Sequence record: LC788709.1
Reading direction: 5' to 3' (one strand)
From: Escherichia coli phage Shin27
DNA length: 64,000 nucleotides
Positions 31,806 to 63,169 of this stretch are shown here, in pieces (within the stretch, counting starts at the first letter, position 1; each line of letters starts with the position of its first letter). The notes beneath the pieces are model-generated. The model made no database searches and was not told where the DNA came from. It saw only the letters and a list, made by a program, of their open reading frames with translations. A program made the translations under genes and the position numbers.

Positions 31806-32057
31806 TTATGCGATAGCTTGCCATTTATCATCTTTCTGAATGATTTTTACAACGTCGCCAGATTTAACACGGACGTTATAAATAGGCTTGCCGTGGTTAC
31901 TGCGTTCCGTTTCCGCATAGACCGCTTCAATCTTATCAAAGGGATCAAGCGCCGCACCTTTAATACGTTCAGCTTTTCCAGTTAATTCATCCGTTTTAGT
32001 AACGAAAGGAATAAAAACGGATTGACCTACTTTCGGTGCGGTGATAACGTTTTGCAT
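31806..32057 (-). CDS. hypothetical pre-early protein
   Basis: 83-aa ORF with GGAG-type SD context (CCGGAGTATTAAAAATG on the coding strand). Confidence 0.5.
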   Translation of the reverse strand: MQNVITAPKVGQSVFIPFVTKTDELTGKAERIKGAALDPFDKIEAVYAETERSNHGKPIYNVRVKSGDVVKIIQKDDKWQAIA

Positions 32058-40735: not shown

Positions 40736-41201
40736 CTTTCTTTAACTCCTGTTTTAACTTTTGATCTTTATTATACCAAATTATGTGCTCACCGTCAACT
40801 ACAAATTTGTGGAAAGGTGCTGGTACGGTGTACACTCCATATTCTGTTAAGCGTGTCACAACTTTATGTGCACATAATCGGCAACCATGTCCTTCTAAGT
40901 GAGACCGTGCAGTTTGCAAGAAGTAACCATCATGATCTGGACAATAGATCTCAACTTGCTGTTGCATAGTTCTATACTTAACTCTCTCGTATCCAAAGAA
41001 CTTACCATGTGCTTCTACAGCTCTCCTGATAAAGATTAGATTAAGTGCATCTTGCTGGAAGTCTGGATGAAGTTGTTTGAGTTTAATTCTATTAATAGAT
41101 CCATCTGATTTAGTGAATCTATTTATGGGAAACTGTAATGCTTCCTCATAAAGTAATTCGTTTATTTTATCTCTCATAGTATACACGAAAGGCCAGAACA
41201 A
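40659..41201 (-). CDS. hypothetical protein with zinc-ribbon-like motif
   Basis: 180-aa ORF. The segment VEIYCPDHDGYFLQTARSHLEGHGCRLC resembles the Cys/His motif of some phage homing-endonuclease-like proteins. This is a weak call. Confidence 0.5.
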   Translation of the reverse strand: MFWPFVYTMRDKINELLYEEALQFPINRFTKSDGSINRIKLKQLHPDFQQDALNLIFIRRAVEAHGKFFGYERVKYRTMQQQVEIYCPDHDGYFLQTARSHLEGHGCRLCAHKVVTRLTEYGVYTVPAPFHKFVVDGEHIIWYNKDQKLKQELKKDGVRSLVKPLSSTLSQTVQDDVGKE

Positions 41202-41222
41202 TTAAGTCCTGGCCTCTAGAAA

Positions 41223-41645
41223 TTAGGTAGCGTCAATGCTCACTAAATCCGTTATAAATTCACCTGATTCCATAGGGATAGAGATCGCAGGGTCACATTC
41301 ACAGGAGGTTATCCATTCGTCCCATTTACTATCAAGTAAAGAGATAAAGCTATCAGGACTTCCTCTTTCTTTATACCTAGCTAAATATTCTTCTTTTAGC
41401 TCTCGTTCTGGATAAAGCAAAATAAAATCTATTCCAGCAGCATGAAGAGCATCTCGTACTTCTTTATGGCTAGAAACTAAGATCAGTTTACCTTCTTCTA
41501 TAGCTTGTGAAATGTGCTCAATATAGTTTGCTGGAAAGTTATCCTTCGGGAACTTAGAAGAATCCGAATCTAGTACACGTGGAAAACACTTAGTGAAGTA
41601 AGTCTTACCGCACCCTGGAAAAGCAGATATAACATTAAATTGCAT
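41223..41645 (-). CDS. P-loop NTPase/kinase-like protein
   Basis: 140-aa ORF with an N-terminal Walker A (SAFPGCGKTYF). Confidence 0.6.
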   Translation of the reverse strand: MQFNVISAFPGCGKTYFTKCFPRVLDSDSSKFPKDNFPANYIEHISQAIEEGKLILVSSHKEVRDALHAAGIDFILLYPERELKEEYLARYKERGSPDSFISLLDSKWDEWITSCECDPAISIPMESGEFITDLVSIDAT

Positions 41646-58454: not shown

Positions 58455-58699
58455 AATTGAATACTATTAGGGGATGATCAGTCCTCCATTTGGCCGTCTA
58501 AGGTACCAAAGTTAGTCATTCTGCGCACAGGTTTTTCTCCTGATTCTTTATTGCGAATGCTCTCTAATAATACTCAATTGTGGCGGCTCTCCGAAACTCT
58601 TCTACTCTAGCCTTAGCAGCTTACTCCCGAACGCATGTCGGGAAAGTCTTACTAAGAACATCAAATAGCACCGTTACACTTTGAGCCATTAATGTATCA

Positions 58700-58830
58700 A
58701 GAAGCAGAAGGACTTGAACCTTCACGAGATAGACCATTTATCTCAGCCTCGTTTTCGGGTATCTTATGAGGAGTGGATGTTCCCCTTACGCCCTTTAGGA
58801 AGCCCCGTCTACCGATTCCGGCATACTTCA
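58700..58830 (-). ncRNA. oversized (~131 nt) tRNA-like element
   Basis: Canonical T-arm GAAGG-TTCAAGT-CCTTC is followed by TGCTTCT, which pairs 6/7 with TGAAGTA at the far end. A D-like CCG-GAATCGGTAGA-CGG is present. No CCA and no ORF. It lies 5 nt from tRNA-Ser. Confidence 0.3.
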
Positions 58831-58835
58831 AGATT

Positions 58836-59766: not shown

Positions 59767-59842
59767 TGGTGGAGTCACTCAGAATTGAACTGAGTTCCAC
59801 TGCTTGCAAGGCAGTAAGTTTAACCAAATAACCTATGACCCC
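59767..59842 (-). tRNA. tRNA-Ala (UGC)
   Basis: Acceptor GGGGTCA/TGACTCC with G3-U70, A73, arm ACTGC-CTTGCAA-GCAGT, T-arm CTCAG-TTCAATT-CTGAG, CCA encoded. Confidence 0.8.
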
Positions 59843-59847
59843 GAATT

Positions 59848-59926
59848 TGGTGGAGAATAAGAGATTCGAACTCTTCTGATATCCTCGGTGCAAGCGAGGT
59901 GTCCACTCCAAGCAGACCCATTCCCC
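59848..59926 (-). tRNA. atypical tRNA, anticodon read as UGC (Ala-like)
   Basis: 79 nt. Acceptor GGGGAAT/ATTCTCC with G3-U70, arm CCTCG-CTTGCAC-CGAGG, T-arm AAGAG-TTCGAAT-CTCTT, CCA encoded. It has G at position 8, an enlarged D loop and a longer variable region. Confidence 0.5.
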
Positions 59927-59936
59927 AAAATCTTTA

Positions 59937-60152
59937 AGTTTACTAAGGCTATTAGCTCGGTGTGCGTATTACCCTCAGACATTAGCCAGTAGAGGATAAC
60001 CGCTCTTCACAAACCCGATACACTATTCAGTTGCCGCTGAATCTAGTGGACTAATCTAGAACTTATTGCAAAGTATCCCCCGCCATTAAGGGTCTACTTG
60101 CAATTGTGCTTTTTGGCAGCCAGTCCTAGGTCGAGCTAATACCTTAGTGAAC
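59937..60152 (-). ncRNA. structured leader/stable-RNA candidate downstream of an early promoter
   Basis: A 22-bp closing helix with one bulge forms between 59937-59959 and 60130-60152 and encloses ~170 nt containing at least three hairpins. No ORF. It lies between the promoter at 60189-60217 and two tRNAs. Confidence 0.3.
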
Positions 60153-60188
60153 TTTGATGAGGATTTCTCCTCATCAATTTATATAAAT

Positions 60189-60217
60189 ATTATAACAAGA
60201 AATTAAGCATCAAGCAA
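60189..60217 (-). promoter_or_regulatory. T5 early-type sigma70 promoter driving a non-coding leader plus tRNAs
   Basis: TTGCTT, 17 nt, TATAAT. The downstream leader starts with a perfect 9-bp hairpin, TGATGAGGA-GAAA-TCCTCATCA. Confidence 0.6.
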
Positions 60218-61623: not shown

Positions 61624-61745
61624 TTTACTTATTGCGTAGGCCACCTGGAGGGTTCAAGCCCCACGGCTGACAAAGAAGTTTGCGAGACTTCTCTTAAACG
61701 CCAGAATAGACCCGCCGATCTATCGGAACCTACTCAATAAGTAAA
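61624..61745. ncRNA. structured ORF-free element closed by a 17-bp helix
   Basis: TTTACTTATTGCGTAGG (61624-61640) pairs 16/17 with CCTACTCAATAAGTAAA (61729-61745). Inside are a 6-bp stem with a 7-nt loop (AGAAGT-TTGCGAG-ACTTCT) and a GGTTCAAGCC T-loop-like motif. Confidence 0.3.
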
Positions 61746-61934: not shown

Positions 61935-61943
61935 ATAATAAGT

Positions 61944-62065
61944 CAATCTAGGCAGGACTTGAACCTGCTATCACTTGTGCGGATTTACGAGAACCATTCT
62001 TTCACTCGAATCGAACGAGCTTCTACCCTCGGCAAGCTGGTGTCCCCTCTCCACCACGCTAGAAT
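61944..62065 (-). ncRNA. oversized (~122 nt) tRNA-like element
   Basis: Canonical T-arm GCAGG-TTCAAGT-CCTGC is followed by CTAGATT, which pairs 6/7 with ATTCTAG at the far end. Internal hairpins are TGGTG-N9-CACCA and CTCG-TTCGATT-CGAG. No CCA and no credible ORF. Confidence 0.3.
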
Positions 62066-62147
62066 GATAATTAGTGCCTGCTCCTTTGAATCAAGAAGTC
62101 CACCCCGGACTTTGGGTCTTTGCAGTACATCACGCTGCTCTGATGTT

Positions 62148-63066: not shown

Positions 63067-63169
63067 ATCTATTTCCTCAGTTGTTAATGAAAAATGGTAT
63101 CTGTGACTGAATTCGATATCAGCAATGATAGCTGGTTGGCTACCGGTTTACTTAACTCTACACAGAATA

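What the first reader, a model, noticed from the sequence alone, without database searches (positions are those of the whole stretch)
59937..60217. Strong promoter feeds a ~230-nt structured non-coding leader before two tRNAs
Seen: the promoter TTGCTT, 17 nt, TATAAT (60189-60217) is followed on the minus strand by three elements. First is a perfect 9-bp hairpin, TGATGAGGA-GAAA-TCCTCATCA (60155-60176). Second is a 22-bp long-range helix (60130-60152 with 59937-59959, one bulge) enclosing ~170 nt. Third are hairpins within that domain at 60026-60043 (ATTCAG/CTGAAT), 60042-60060 (TCTAG/CTAGA) and 60066-60103 (TTGCAA/TTGCAA). There is no ORF. The Ala-type tRNAs start 10 nt beyond the helix. Inference: this is a stable RNA or a processing/regulatory leader, for example an RNase P/E entry platform or a protein sponge.
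Basis: seen in the sequence. Interest (0 to 1): 0.55.

Follow-up and report, generated by a model that had tools for sequence, protein, structure and literature searches.

The report
Phage T5 "RNA2H" structured RNA gene
The flagged stretch is the counterpart of gene rna2H of phage T5, long annotated as a "stable RNA with unknown functions"; it folds into a conserved, knotted, many-armed RNA that sits in front of the phage's tRNA genes, and what it does is still not known.

Summary
The window is a T5-like phage, 100% identical over the 801-base query to E. coli phage Wa28. On the minus strand, 60217-59927 holds a T5-type early promoter, a 10-bp hairpin, and a 21-bp long-range helix with one bulged G that encloses about 170 nt. 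A tRNA-Ala gene starts 11 nt after the helix.

The enclosed RNA is the ortholog of T5 rna2H (NC_005859 31808-31979), which lies between promoter P13b and tRNA-Ala. I collected 45 distinct homologs in six lineages: T5/Epseptimavirus, Klebsiella Sugarlandvirus, phage Eos, Enterobacter phage KKP_3711, a metagenome contig, and Pectobacterium phage My1.

On 21 representative sequences, 95% of cells pair, against 33-41% when the partners are slid, and 29 of 70 pairs change on both sides.

The element has no ORF and no Rfam match. There is one copy per genome.

So this is a discrete non-coding RNA gene, not just a leader. Its function is unknown. T5 deletion mutants that lack it are viable. I infer that host RNA-processing enzymes release it and that it acts in trans.

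It is known as an annotation, but I found no published structure or function for it. Interest is moderate.

The parts
60212..60217 (-). -35 hexamer TTGCTT of a T5-type early promoter (counterpart of T5 P13b)
   Evidence: Sequence. Aligns with the annotated T5 promoter P13b. The promoter cassette recurs elsewhere in the window.
60189..60197 (-). Extended -10, TGTTATAAT. The predicted transcription start is near 60182.
   Evidence: Sequence. The start is inferred from spacing only and is not mapped.
60154..60177 (-). P0: 10-bp 5' hairpin UUGAUGAGGA-GAAA-UCCUCAUCAA, which sequesters an SD-like GAGGAG
   Evidence: I7. The base UUGAUG/CAUCAA is kept in the T5-like group, L054 and KKP_3711 with different apexes. 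The apex is inverted in L045 and L051, carries a ~95-nt insert in SP_Thor, saus132 and GSP044, and the hairpin is absent in the Klebsiella phages and Eos.
60132..60152 (-). P1 5' arm (outer GUUCACUAAGG plus inner UAUUAGCUCG)
   Evidence: I1, I4. Covariation (6 pairs change on both sides). In My1 the inner helix is a different, complementary sequence.
59938..59959 (-). P1 3' arm (CGAGCUAAUA, bulged G at 59949, CCUUAGUAAAC)
   Evidence: The bulged G and the GG/CC pairs next to it are invariant in all six lineages.
60122..60126 (-). Pseudoknot 5' strand GGACU
   Evidence: It pairs with 60052-60048. 100% of cells pair and 4 of 5 pairs covary (helix 2). RNAalifold found the helix independently. A U-A / U.G / C-G series occurs within the Klebsiella phages.
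60048..60052 (-). Pseudoknot 3' strand AGUCC, in the loop of P3
60106..60115 (-). Conserved A-rich linker CAAAAA plus the 5' strand of junction helix P6b (GCAC)
   Evidence: Near-invariant columns. GCAC/GUGU pairs in all cells with one G.U to A-U change, which is only weak evidence (helix 3).
60065..60105 (-). P2: variable hairpin (long form here, 19-nt short form in T5)
   Evidence: The basal pairs covary (helix 4).
60042..60060 (-). P3 hairpin UCUAG/CUAGA, whose loop forms the pseudoknot
   Evidence: All 5 pairs change on both sides (helix 5).
60027..60040 (-). P4 hairpin UCAG-CGGCAA-CUGA
   Evidence: All 4 pairs change on both sides (helix 6).
60011..60023 (-). P6b 3' strand GUGU plus the conserved joiner AUCGGGUUU
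   Evidence: Conserved block AGUGUA..G..UUUG in five lineages. Only GUGUA is kept in My1.
59960..60010 (-). P5 arm: base helix GUG/CAC, then GCG/CGC, then a 9-bp stem and the apical loop UGGCUAAU (59988-59981)
   Evidence: The base pair U-A changes to C-G (helix 7). The stem covaries (helix 8). P5 exists in two interchangeable forms, the window/Klebsiella type and the T5/Eos type, and My1 has a third.
59947..60141 (-). Stretch equivalent to the annotated T5 RNA2H (UAUUAGCUCG ... CGAGCUAAUAGCC), 195 nt here
   Evidence: Alignment to T5 31808-31979. Whether these ends are real in vivo was not tested.
59927..59937 (-). AU-rich 11-nt spacer to the tRNA
59848..59926 (-). tRNA-Ala(UGC), an unusual 79-nt type. 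An RNase P cut at its 5' end would set the 3' limit of the upstream RNA.
   Evidence: ARAGORN and Rfam at 38.1 bits. The RNase P step is inferred from general tRNA biology.
59767..59842 (-). Second tRNA-Ala(UGC), a different sequence

Best explanation
Shown: this is a separate non-coding RNA gene, the ortholog of phage T5 rna2H. It is not merely a leader. It lies directly after a strong T5-type early promoter in the tRNA cluster. The RNA closes on itself through a 21-bp helix (P1) that has an invariant bulged G. Inside P1 it forms a three-way junction. One branch is the long arm P5, which stacks directly onto the 3' strand of P1. The other branch is a cloverleaf-like four-way junction of P6b, P2, P3 and P4. 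The strand that leaves P1 pairs with the loop of P3 and so ties the fold together as a pseudoknot.

Inferred: the RNA is cut out of the tRNA-operon precursor by host enzymes. RNase P would cut at the 5' end of the downstream tRNA. RNase III, or an RNase P-type cut followed by 3' trimming, would act at the invariant GG / G-bulge-CC site in P1. This would leave a compact species of about 195 nt (172 nt in T5) with a 10-bp terminal stem and a short 3' GCC tail. The same stem-plus-tail end architecture is annotated for other T5 stable RNAs.

Inferred with low certainty: the RNA then acts in trans as a folded RNA, most likely by binding a host or phage protein. It would be an accessory function, useful in some hosts and not essential for growth.
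For: Identity: the element aligns with T5 31808-31979 (rna2H, 'stable RNA with unknown functions') in the same position, between promoter P13b and tRNA-Ala.

Conservation: 547 phage records match the region. Six lineages carry it, including Pectobacterium phage My1, which only a profile search and a structure descriptor could find.

Structure under selection: 95.1% of cells pair, against 33-41% with slid partners. 29 of 70 pairs change on both sides, and 0 of 500 shuffles reach the observed values. RNAalifold on an independent MAFFT alignment recovers P1, the pseudoknot helix and P5. The window differs from the Klebsiella phage by 18 compensatory changes.

RNA level and strand: there are 173 G.U cells against 42 A.C cells, 35 of which are one fixed mismatch.

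Non-coding: no ORF is shared between lineages.

Discrete gene: in the Klebsiella phages and Eos, P1 starts about 3 nt after the predicted transcription start and ends 4 nt before the tRNA. The downstream neighbour varies between tRNA-Ala types, tRNA-Leu and an ORF.

Processing site: the GG/CC pairs and the bulged G are invariant while the rest of P1 covaries. The annotated T5 ends fall exactly at this site and leave a 3' overhang of the bulged G plus CC. T5 RNAI and RNA3 end in a stem plus GCCA or ACCA.

Accessory role: the T5 deletions d30661-38625 and d29191-32442 remove rna2H and the phages grow (PMC11464382). Phage FFH1 carries an internal deletion of the element.
Against: No expression, end-mapping or binding data were available. 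I could not check the experimental basis of the T5 annotation 'stable RNA' or of its ends.

The covariation alignment was built by hand to fit the structure. The slid-partner controls and the independent RNAalifold run offset this only in part. There are only six independent lineages.

No partner protein gene is consistently adjacent to the element.

The two interchangeable P5 forms, and the third form in My1, show that a large part of the RNA tolerates replacement.

The choice between RNase III and RNase P is unresolved.
Confidence: 0.55

Rival explanations
1. Cis-acting processing or stability platform. The structured leader exists to help make or protect the downstream tRNAs. It could present the precursor to RNase P, E or III, or block 5'-end-dependent decay. 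It would have no life of its own afterwards.
For: The element almost always lies directly upstream of a tRNA: 11 nt here, 4 nt in the Klebsiella phages and My1. P1 resembles the stalks that flank rRNAs. P0 and P1 give a structured 5' end.
Against: In Eps7 and KKP_3711 an ORF follows the element, not a tRNA. The following tRNA differs in identity and in sequence type. The other tRNA groups in this cluster show no copy of the element. A stalk function does not explain the covarying pseudoknot, the four-way junction or the invariant loops. T5 annotates the element as a stable RNA.
Confidence: 0.15
2. tRNA-machinery mimic or decoy. After processing, the RNA presents a tRNA-like acceptor end (stem plus GCC, completed to GCCA by the CCA-adding enzyme). 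It would titrate or misdirect a host factor that acts on tRNAs, for example an anticodon nuclease of a defence system.
For: The element lies in a tRNA cluster whose tRNAs are known counter-defence tools, such as T5 tRNA-Lys against PARIS (PMC11464382). The P5 3' strand runs straight into the P1 3' strand and then G-CC, as the T-stem runs into the acceptor stem and NCCA in a tRNA. Other T5 stable RNAs end in GCCA or ACCA. The element is dispensable in laboratory hosts.
Against: ARAGORN and the Rfam tRNA, tmRNA and YrlA models do not match it. It has no T-loop sequence. The genome encodes GCCU, not GCCA. In the PARIS study the rescuing activity was assigned to the phage tRNA-Lys, not to this RNA.
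Confidence: 0.12
3. Riboswitch or attenuator. The domain senses a ligand or a tRNA and controls transcription of the downstream genes.
For: A P1-closed, pseudoknotted multi-helix domain just after a promoter has the general look of an aptamer.
Against: There is no terminator or alternative pairing on the minus strand between P1 and the tRNA. A 21-bp P1 is too stable to switch. Nothing in Rfam matches. The downstream genes are tRNAs that start 4-11 nt after P1.
Confidence: 0.03
4. Non-functional relic or a DNA-level element, such as a decayed tRNA pair, a miniature transposon with inverted ends, or a DNA palindrome.
For: T5-like tRNA clusters are mosaic and hold tRNA-like remnants. P1 looks like terminal inverted repeats. 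The element can be lost, as in FFH1 and the T5 deletion mutants.
Against: Compensatory changes and strand-specific G.U pairs show selection on the RNA fold. There is a single copy per genome. The element is conserved from T5 to My1 although the sequences are beyond blastn reach.
Confidence: 0.03

Closest known systems
Phage T5 rna2H (T5s04, 'RNA2H', NC_005859 31808-31979)
   Same: It is homologous in sequence and occupies the same position between promoter P13b and tRNA-Ala(UGC). It has the same P1, pseudoknot, P3, P4 and junction sequences.
   Different: The window has a long P2 (41 nt against 19 nt) and the other form of the P5 arm. It also has a second tRNA-Ala downstream. T5 has a mismatch in P0.
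Other stable RNAs of phage tRNA clusters: T5 RNAI, RNAIII, RNAIV, RNA1-3 and T4 species 1/2 RNAs (rnaC, rnaD)
   Same: They have the same genomic niche, lying inside tRNA operons. Their 5' and 3' ends pair. They are annotated as stable and their function is unknown.
   Different: There is no sequence similarity to any of them. T4 rnaC and T5 RNA1/RNA2 carry a tRNA-type T-arm sequence, which this RNA lacks. This RNA is larger and has a pseudoknot.
rRNA-operon processing stalks (RNase III substrates)
   Same: Flanking sequences form a helix of about 20 bp that encloses the mature RNA. The annotated T5 ends leave a 3' overhang (the bulged G plus CC), consistent with a staggered cut.
   Different: Cleavage is not shown. 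The helix has an invariant bulged G and invariant neighbouring pairs, which RNase III does not require.
Bacterial Y RNAs (YrlA) and the tmRNA tRNA-like domain
   Same: In these too, paired 5' and 3' ends form a long stem with a bulge and carry a multi-branched module. Some are phage-encoded (from my own knowledge of these families).
   Different: The Rfam models give no match even at E = 10. No Ro-binding or T-loop sequence motif is present.
Large structured RNAs often found near tRNAs in phages (ROOL, GOLLD)
   Same: They are structured non-coding RNAs of unknown role in phage genomes next to tRNA genes (from my own knowledge).
   Different: They are several times larger, and no Rfam match was found.

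Membership tests
T5 rna2H (RNA2H) orthologs | Sequence homology to T5 31808-31979 | tested here: met
   The pairwise alignment is identical through P1, the pseudoknot, P3 and P4. The blastn hit covers T5 RNA2H 1-113 against window 60141-60007. The profile hit has E = 2e-57.
T5 rna2H (RNA2H) orthologs | Same position: after a T5 early promoter (P13b) and before tRNA-Ala(UGC) in the tRNA cluster | tested here: met
T5 rna2H (RNA2H) orthologs | Accumulates as a stable RNA in infected cells | not testable with these tools
   Only the GenBank note 'stable RNA with unknown functions' is available. No primary data were found.
Any Rfam family | Covariance-model score at or above the gathering threshold | tested here: not met
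   Only tRNAs reach the threshold. Within 59937-60185 the best matches at E up to 10 are chance-level snoRNA, sRNA and intron hits.
tRNA / tRNA-like RNA | Cloverleaf with a T-arm and T-loop, recognised by ARAGORN or Rfam RF00005 | tested here: not met
   Neither tool calls anything in 59937-60152. The topology is only loosely tRNA-like.
Riboswitch / transcription attenuator | Expression platform: a terminator or an SD-sequestering alternative downstream of the aptamer | tested here: not met
   There is no minus-strand terminator between P1 and the tRNA. The tRNA starts 11 nt after P1.
RNase III processing stalk | Flanks form a helix of about 20 bp or more around the mature RNA | tested here: met
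   The helix has 21 positions with one bulge and covaries.
RNase III processing stalk | Staggered cleavage by RNase III in vivo | not testable with these tools
   The annotated T5 ends are consistent with it, but their basis is unknown.
Miniature transposon with inverted ends | Several copies per genome and precise presence/absence | tested here: not met
   Only the promoter part repeats in the window. Each phage record has one place. The FFH1 loss is an internal deletion between GCTCGA repeats.

The most novel reading that the evidence does not exclude
RNA2H is a phage counter-defence or host-takeover RNA. After it is cut out by the tRNA-processing machinery, it would present a tRNA-like acceptor end on a pseudoknotted body. 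It would act as a decoy for a host factor that targets or handles tRNAs, such as an anticodon nuclease, a retron-linked or PARIS-type effector, or a tRNA repair or modification enzyme. If so, the other orphan 'stable RNAs' of T5 and T4 tRNA clusters would become a class of RNA-based anti-defence factors.
Probability: 0.12. Interest if true: 0.75.

Novelty: already known. Interest (0 to 1): 0.45.

Why it matters
The small stable RNAs encoded in the tRNA clusters of T4 and T5 have had no assigned function in any source I could find. They are absent from Rfam and are left unannotated in the T5-like genomes whose annotation I inspected.

This work places one of them on firmer ground. It is a family that spans at least three branches of Demerecviridae. 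It has a covariation-supported pseudoknotted fold, a probable processing site, and defined variable arms.

That gives experimenters concrete handles: which base pairs to break and restore, which loops are invariant, and which natural deletion variants exist. It also gives annotators a model to build.

T5 tRNAs have recently been shown to neutralise host defences, so the neighbouring structured RNAs are reasonable candidates for similar roles.

Tried and rejected
- Rfam at gathering and at E up to 10, on the window and on the SP_Thor variant: nothing but tRNAs.
- Seven literature searches for T5 stable RNAs, RNA2H or ncRNAs of T5-like phages. One was rejected for a term shorter than three characters. 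The other six found nothing on this RNA. The only useful item was the set of T5 deletion coordinates in PMC11464382.
- Pattern scans. IMG/VR gave mostly the same isolates. The metagenome scan gave one new lineage and one chance hit, L046. The bacterial-genome scan gave only a chance hit in Paenibacillus, so no host homolog was seen.
- The unusual tRNA-Ala as an anchor in unrelated phages (Yersinia jumbo phage, Klebsiella Vequintavirinae, Aeromonas LAh_9): the tRNA is there but the RNA element is not.
- tRNA-Leu as an anchor for distant T5-like phages: not informative.
- Vibrio phage pVp-1, first 50 kb: no profile hit and no credible descriptor hit.
- Similarity to T4 rnaC/rnaD or to the other T5 stable RNAs: none.
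- A hammerhead reading of CUGAUGA-like UUGAUGAGGAGAAAUCC: rejected, because the sequence lacks the GAAA core after stem II and Rfam is silent.
- The P4 loop as an anticodon mimic, and the P5 loop UGGC as a CCA-binding site: not conserved across lineages, so dropped.
- The MFE helix CUAGGACU/AGUUCUAG: it competes with P3 and the pseudoknot, and a substitution in phage 100268_sal2 would introduce a C.A mismatch into it, so I preferred P3 plus the pseudoknot.
- A covariance model was not built.

Full report
WHAT THE WINDOW IS. The 801 bases around the finding are 100% identical to E. coli phage Wa28 and 97-99% identical to many Epseptimavirus and Tequintavirus genomes. The minus strand of 56.8-63.3 kb carries 21 tRNA genes. 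This is the early tRNA cluster of a T5-like phage.

THE OBSERVATION. On the minus strand the sequence reads as follows.
- -35 hexamer TTGCTT at 60217-60212, then 17 nt, then TATAAT at 60194-60189, preceded by TG (an extended -10).
- A perfect 10-bp hairpin, P0, at 60177-60154.
- A long-range helix, P1, formed by 60152-60132 with 59959-59938.
- tRNA-Ala(UGC), starting at 59926.

P1 has 11 outer positions with one C.A mismatch, a bulged G at 59949, and 10 perfect inner pairs. No ORF of 20 aa or more lies inside the element.

The fold is far more stable than shuffled sequence, with z = -6.9 and 0 of 200 shuffles folding as well. The generic promoter scan missed the site because the -35 matches the consensus at only 3 of 6 positions. 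However, the site is homologous to the annotated T5 promoter P13b. Related forms of the same promoter cassette, including its first transcribed bases, occur at about ten other places in the window. From memory, TTGCTT is also the -35 of well-known strong T5 promoters such as PN25.

IDENTITY. In the T5 reference genome the homologous stretch is annotated as misc_RNA rna2H (T5s04): 'RNA2H, stable RNA with unknown functions', 31808-31979. It lies between promoter P13b and tRNA-Ala(UGC). The window and T5 are identical through P1, the junction strands, P3 and P4. They differ in two arms. P2 is 41 nt here and 19 nt in T5, and the P5 arm has been replaced by an unrelated hairpin. The feature is therefore already on record as a gene. 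The Wa28 record lists only a hypothetical protein under the matching stretch, so the RNA itself is not annotated there. Neither ARAGORN nor Rfam reports it.

RELATIVES. Using blastn, pattern scans, a profile HMM and a helix descriptor, I collected 45 distinct sequences in six lineages.
- The T5/Epseptimavirus group.
- Klebsiella Sugarlandvirus.
- Phage Eos.
- Enterobacter phage KKP_3711.
- Metagenome contig L054.
- Pectobacterium phage My1 (Mccorquodalevirinae).

The My1 copy is beyond blastn reach. The profile search found it at E = 1e-4, and a descriptor of the form 'outer helix, GG, inner helix ... inner helix, bulged G, CC, outer helix' found it with zero mismatches. Nothing credible was found in the first 50 kb of Vibrio phage pVp-1. 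Nothing was found in bacterial genomes either. Each phage genome holds one copy.

STRUCTURE. I aligned the sequences by hand, helix by helix. I then passed 21 representatives to the pair-counting tool as a padded alignment of fixed length. The overall figures are:
- 95.1% of cells form standard pairs, against 33-41% when the 3' partners are slid by 1-3 columns.
- 29 of 70 pairs change on both sides.
- None of 500 shuffles reaches the observed pairing, covariation score or number of compensatory cells.

Helix by helix (unless stated otherwise):
- P1 has 6 covarying pairs. In My1 its inner helix is UCUCUUAUC/GAUAAGAGA instead of UAUUAGCUCG/CGAGCUAAUA.
- P3 covaries at 5 of 5 pairs.
- P4 covaries at 4 of 4 pairs.
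- P2 covaries at its base.
- The base of P5 switches G-U-G/C-A-C to G-C-G/C-G-C.
- Both forms of the P5 stem show compensatory changes.

A pseudoknot pairs 60126-60122 (GGACU) with 60052-60048 (AGUCC) in the P3 loop. It pairs in 100% of cells and 4 of its 5 pairs covary. The pairing reads GAGUC/GACUC in the Klebsiella phages and GAACC/GGUUC in Eos, L054 and KKP_3711. Within the Klebsiella group one position runs through the series U-A, U.G, C-G. RNAalifold, run on a plain MAFFT alignment of eight sequences, found P1, this pseudoknot helix and P5 on its own.

There are 173 G.U cells and 42 A.C cells, and 35 of the A.C cells are one fixed mismatch. The constraint therefore acts on RNA of this strand. 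A short junction helix GCAC/GUGU is compatible with the data but barely varies.

The resulting picture is as follows. P1 closes a three-way junction. P5 continues directly from the P1 3' strand. The third branch is a four-way junction of P6b, P2, P3 and P4. The strand leaving P1 locks onto the P3 loop.

Two caveats apply. The alignment was fitted to the structure, and the lineages are few. The slid-partner controls and the independent RNAalifold prediction answer the first caveat only in part.

GENE OR LEADER. In the Klebsiella phages and Eos there is no P0. P1 begins about 3 nt after the predicted transcription start and ends 4 nt before the tRNA. Transcription initiation and the RNase P cut at the tRNA would therefore by themselves yield an RNA whose two ends are paired.

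The downstream neighbour is not fixed. It is one of three unrelated tRNA-Ala sequence types in some phages. It is tRNA-Leu in L054 and My1, and a small ORF in Eps7 and KKP_3711. The interior is more elaborate than a stalk needs. Together these points favour a discrete RNA gene.

PROCESSING (INFERENCE). The GG/CC pairs and the bulged G at the middle of P1 are invariant in all six lineages, while the rest of P1 covaries. The T5 annotation places both RNA2H ends exactly at this site. The 5' end is the first base of the inner helix, and the 3' end falls after G-CC. That geometry fits two routes:
- a staggered RNase III cut, which would leave the bulged G plus CC as a 3' overhang; or
- an RNase P-type cut at the base of an acceptor-like stem, followed by 3' trimming.

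Other T5 stable RNAs are annotated with the same end architecture. RNAI ends in a stem plus GCCA, and RNA3 in a stem plus ACCA. I could not find how the T5 ends were determined.

FUNCTION. Nothing here reveals the function. T5 mutants with deletions d30661-38625 and d29191-32442, both of which remove rna2H, are viable (PMC11464382). Phage FFH1 has lost the interior of the element through a deletion between GCTCGA repeats. The RNA is therefore accessory. The P2 apex and the whole P5 arm can be exchanged. In contrast, P1, the pseudoknot, the A-rich linker and the GUGUA joiner are kept. In four lineages the 8-nt P5 loop UGGCUAAU is also kept, with a covarying closing stem. No protein gene is consistently adjacent.

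My best guess is a trans-acting folded RNA that binds a protein. A cis role in tRNA maturation and a tRNA-mimic decoy role are the main alternatives. A riboswitch, a relic and a DNA-level element are unlikely.

VERDICT. The feature is the ortholog of an RNA gene already annotated in T5, so it is not new as an entity. I could not find the following described in Rfam or in the searchable literature: the covariation-supported pseudoknotted fold, the invariant mid-P1 site, the modular arms, and the reach of the family to Sugarlandvirus and Myunavirus. Interest is moderate. The RNA is a well-defined orphan structured RNA in a much-studied model phage, located in a gene cluster now linked to counter-defence.

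Noticed in passing
window 58581-58687, 58688-58832, 61633-61733, 61942-62066, 63095-63167 (all minus strand): These are homologs of five other T5 'stable RNAs of unknown function': RNAI, RNA1, RNAIV, RNA2 and RNA3, at 81-97% identity. Neither ARAGORN nor Rfam reports them. No match to RNAIII was found.
   Followed up: partly
window 59848-59926 (minus strand): The first of two tandem tRNA-Ala(UGC) genes is an unusual 79-nt type. The whole-window Rfam scan missed it, but it scores 38 bits in a small scan. The same tRNA type occurs in unrelated phages (Yersinia jumbo phage fHe-Yen9-04, Klebsiella phage Seu621, Aeromonas phage LAh_9) without the RNA2H element upstream.
   Followed up: partly
L002 460-555 (SP_Thor); also saus132 L013, GSP044 L016, phiR2-01 L062, metagenome L056: A ~95-nt insertion replaces the apex of the P0 hairpin while the base UUGAUG/CAUCAA is kept. 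On its own it folds weakly (z = -1.8) and has no Rfam match.
   Followed up: partly
L045 and L051 (metagenome contigs), P0 hairpin: The P0 apex is the exact reverse complement of the window's (GAGGA-UUUC-UCCUC instead of GAGGA-GAAA-UCCUC), that is, an inversion of the palindrome. On the plus strand the window's P0 palindrome followed by a T-run also scores as terminator-like.
   Followed up: no
L017 (phage FFH1) about 680-720: This is a natural internal deletion of the RNA2H interior between two GCTCGA direct repeats. It leaves P1 and the end of P5.
   Followed up: no
window 60100-60090 and 59919-59909: The P2 apex (CAAGUAGACCC) is 91% complementary over 11 nt to the D-arm region of the adjacent tRNA-Ala (I3). 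This is not kept in SP_Thor or the Klebsiella phages, so it is probably chance.
   Followed up: partly
L061 29278-29362 (phage My1, minus strand): A tRNA-Leu(UAG) that is 94% identical to the T5 gene lies right after the My1 copy of the RNA, but it is not annotated in the My1 record.
   Followed up: no
L002 (SP_Thor) 68-421 and 813-992; L012 (Eps7) 587-850: The product names in the public records look wrong. 'Thymidylate synthase' and 'dihydrofolate reductase' are given to ORFs of 117 and 59 aa, and the second overlaps the tRNA-Ala genes. 'Rho-associated coiled-coil kinase 2' is given to an 87-aa ORF.
   Followed up: no
L001 13849-14567 (T5 40848-41566): T5 also annotates a 719-nt 'RNAX, stable RNA with unknown functions' upstream of tRNA-Arg. 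It contains a tRNA-type T-arm sequence and internal repeats. I did not look for it in the window.
   Followed up: no
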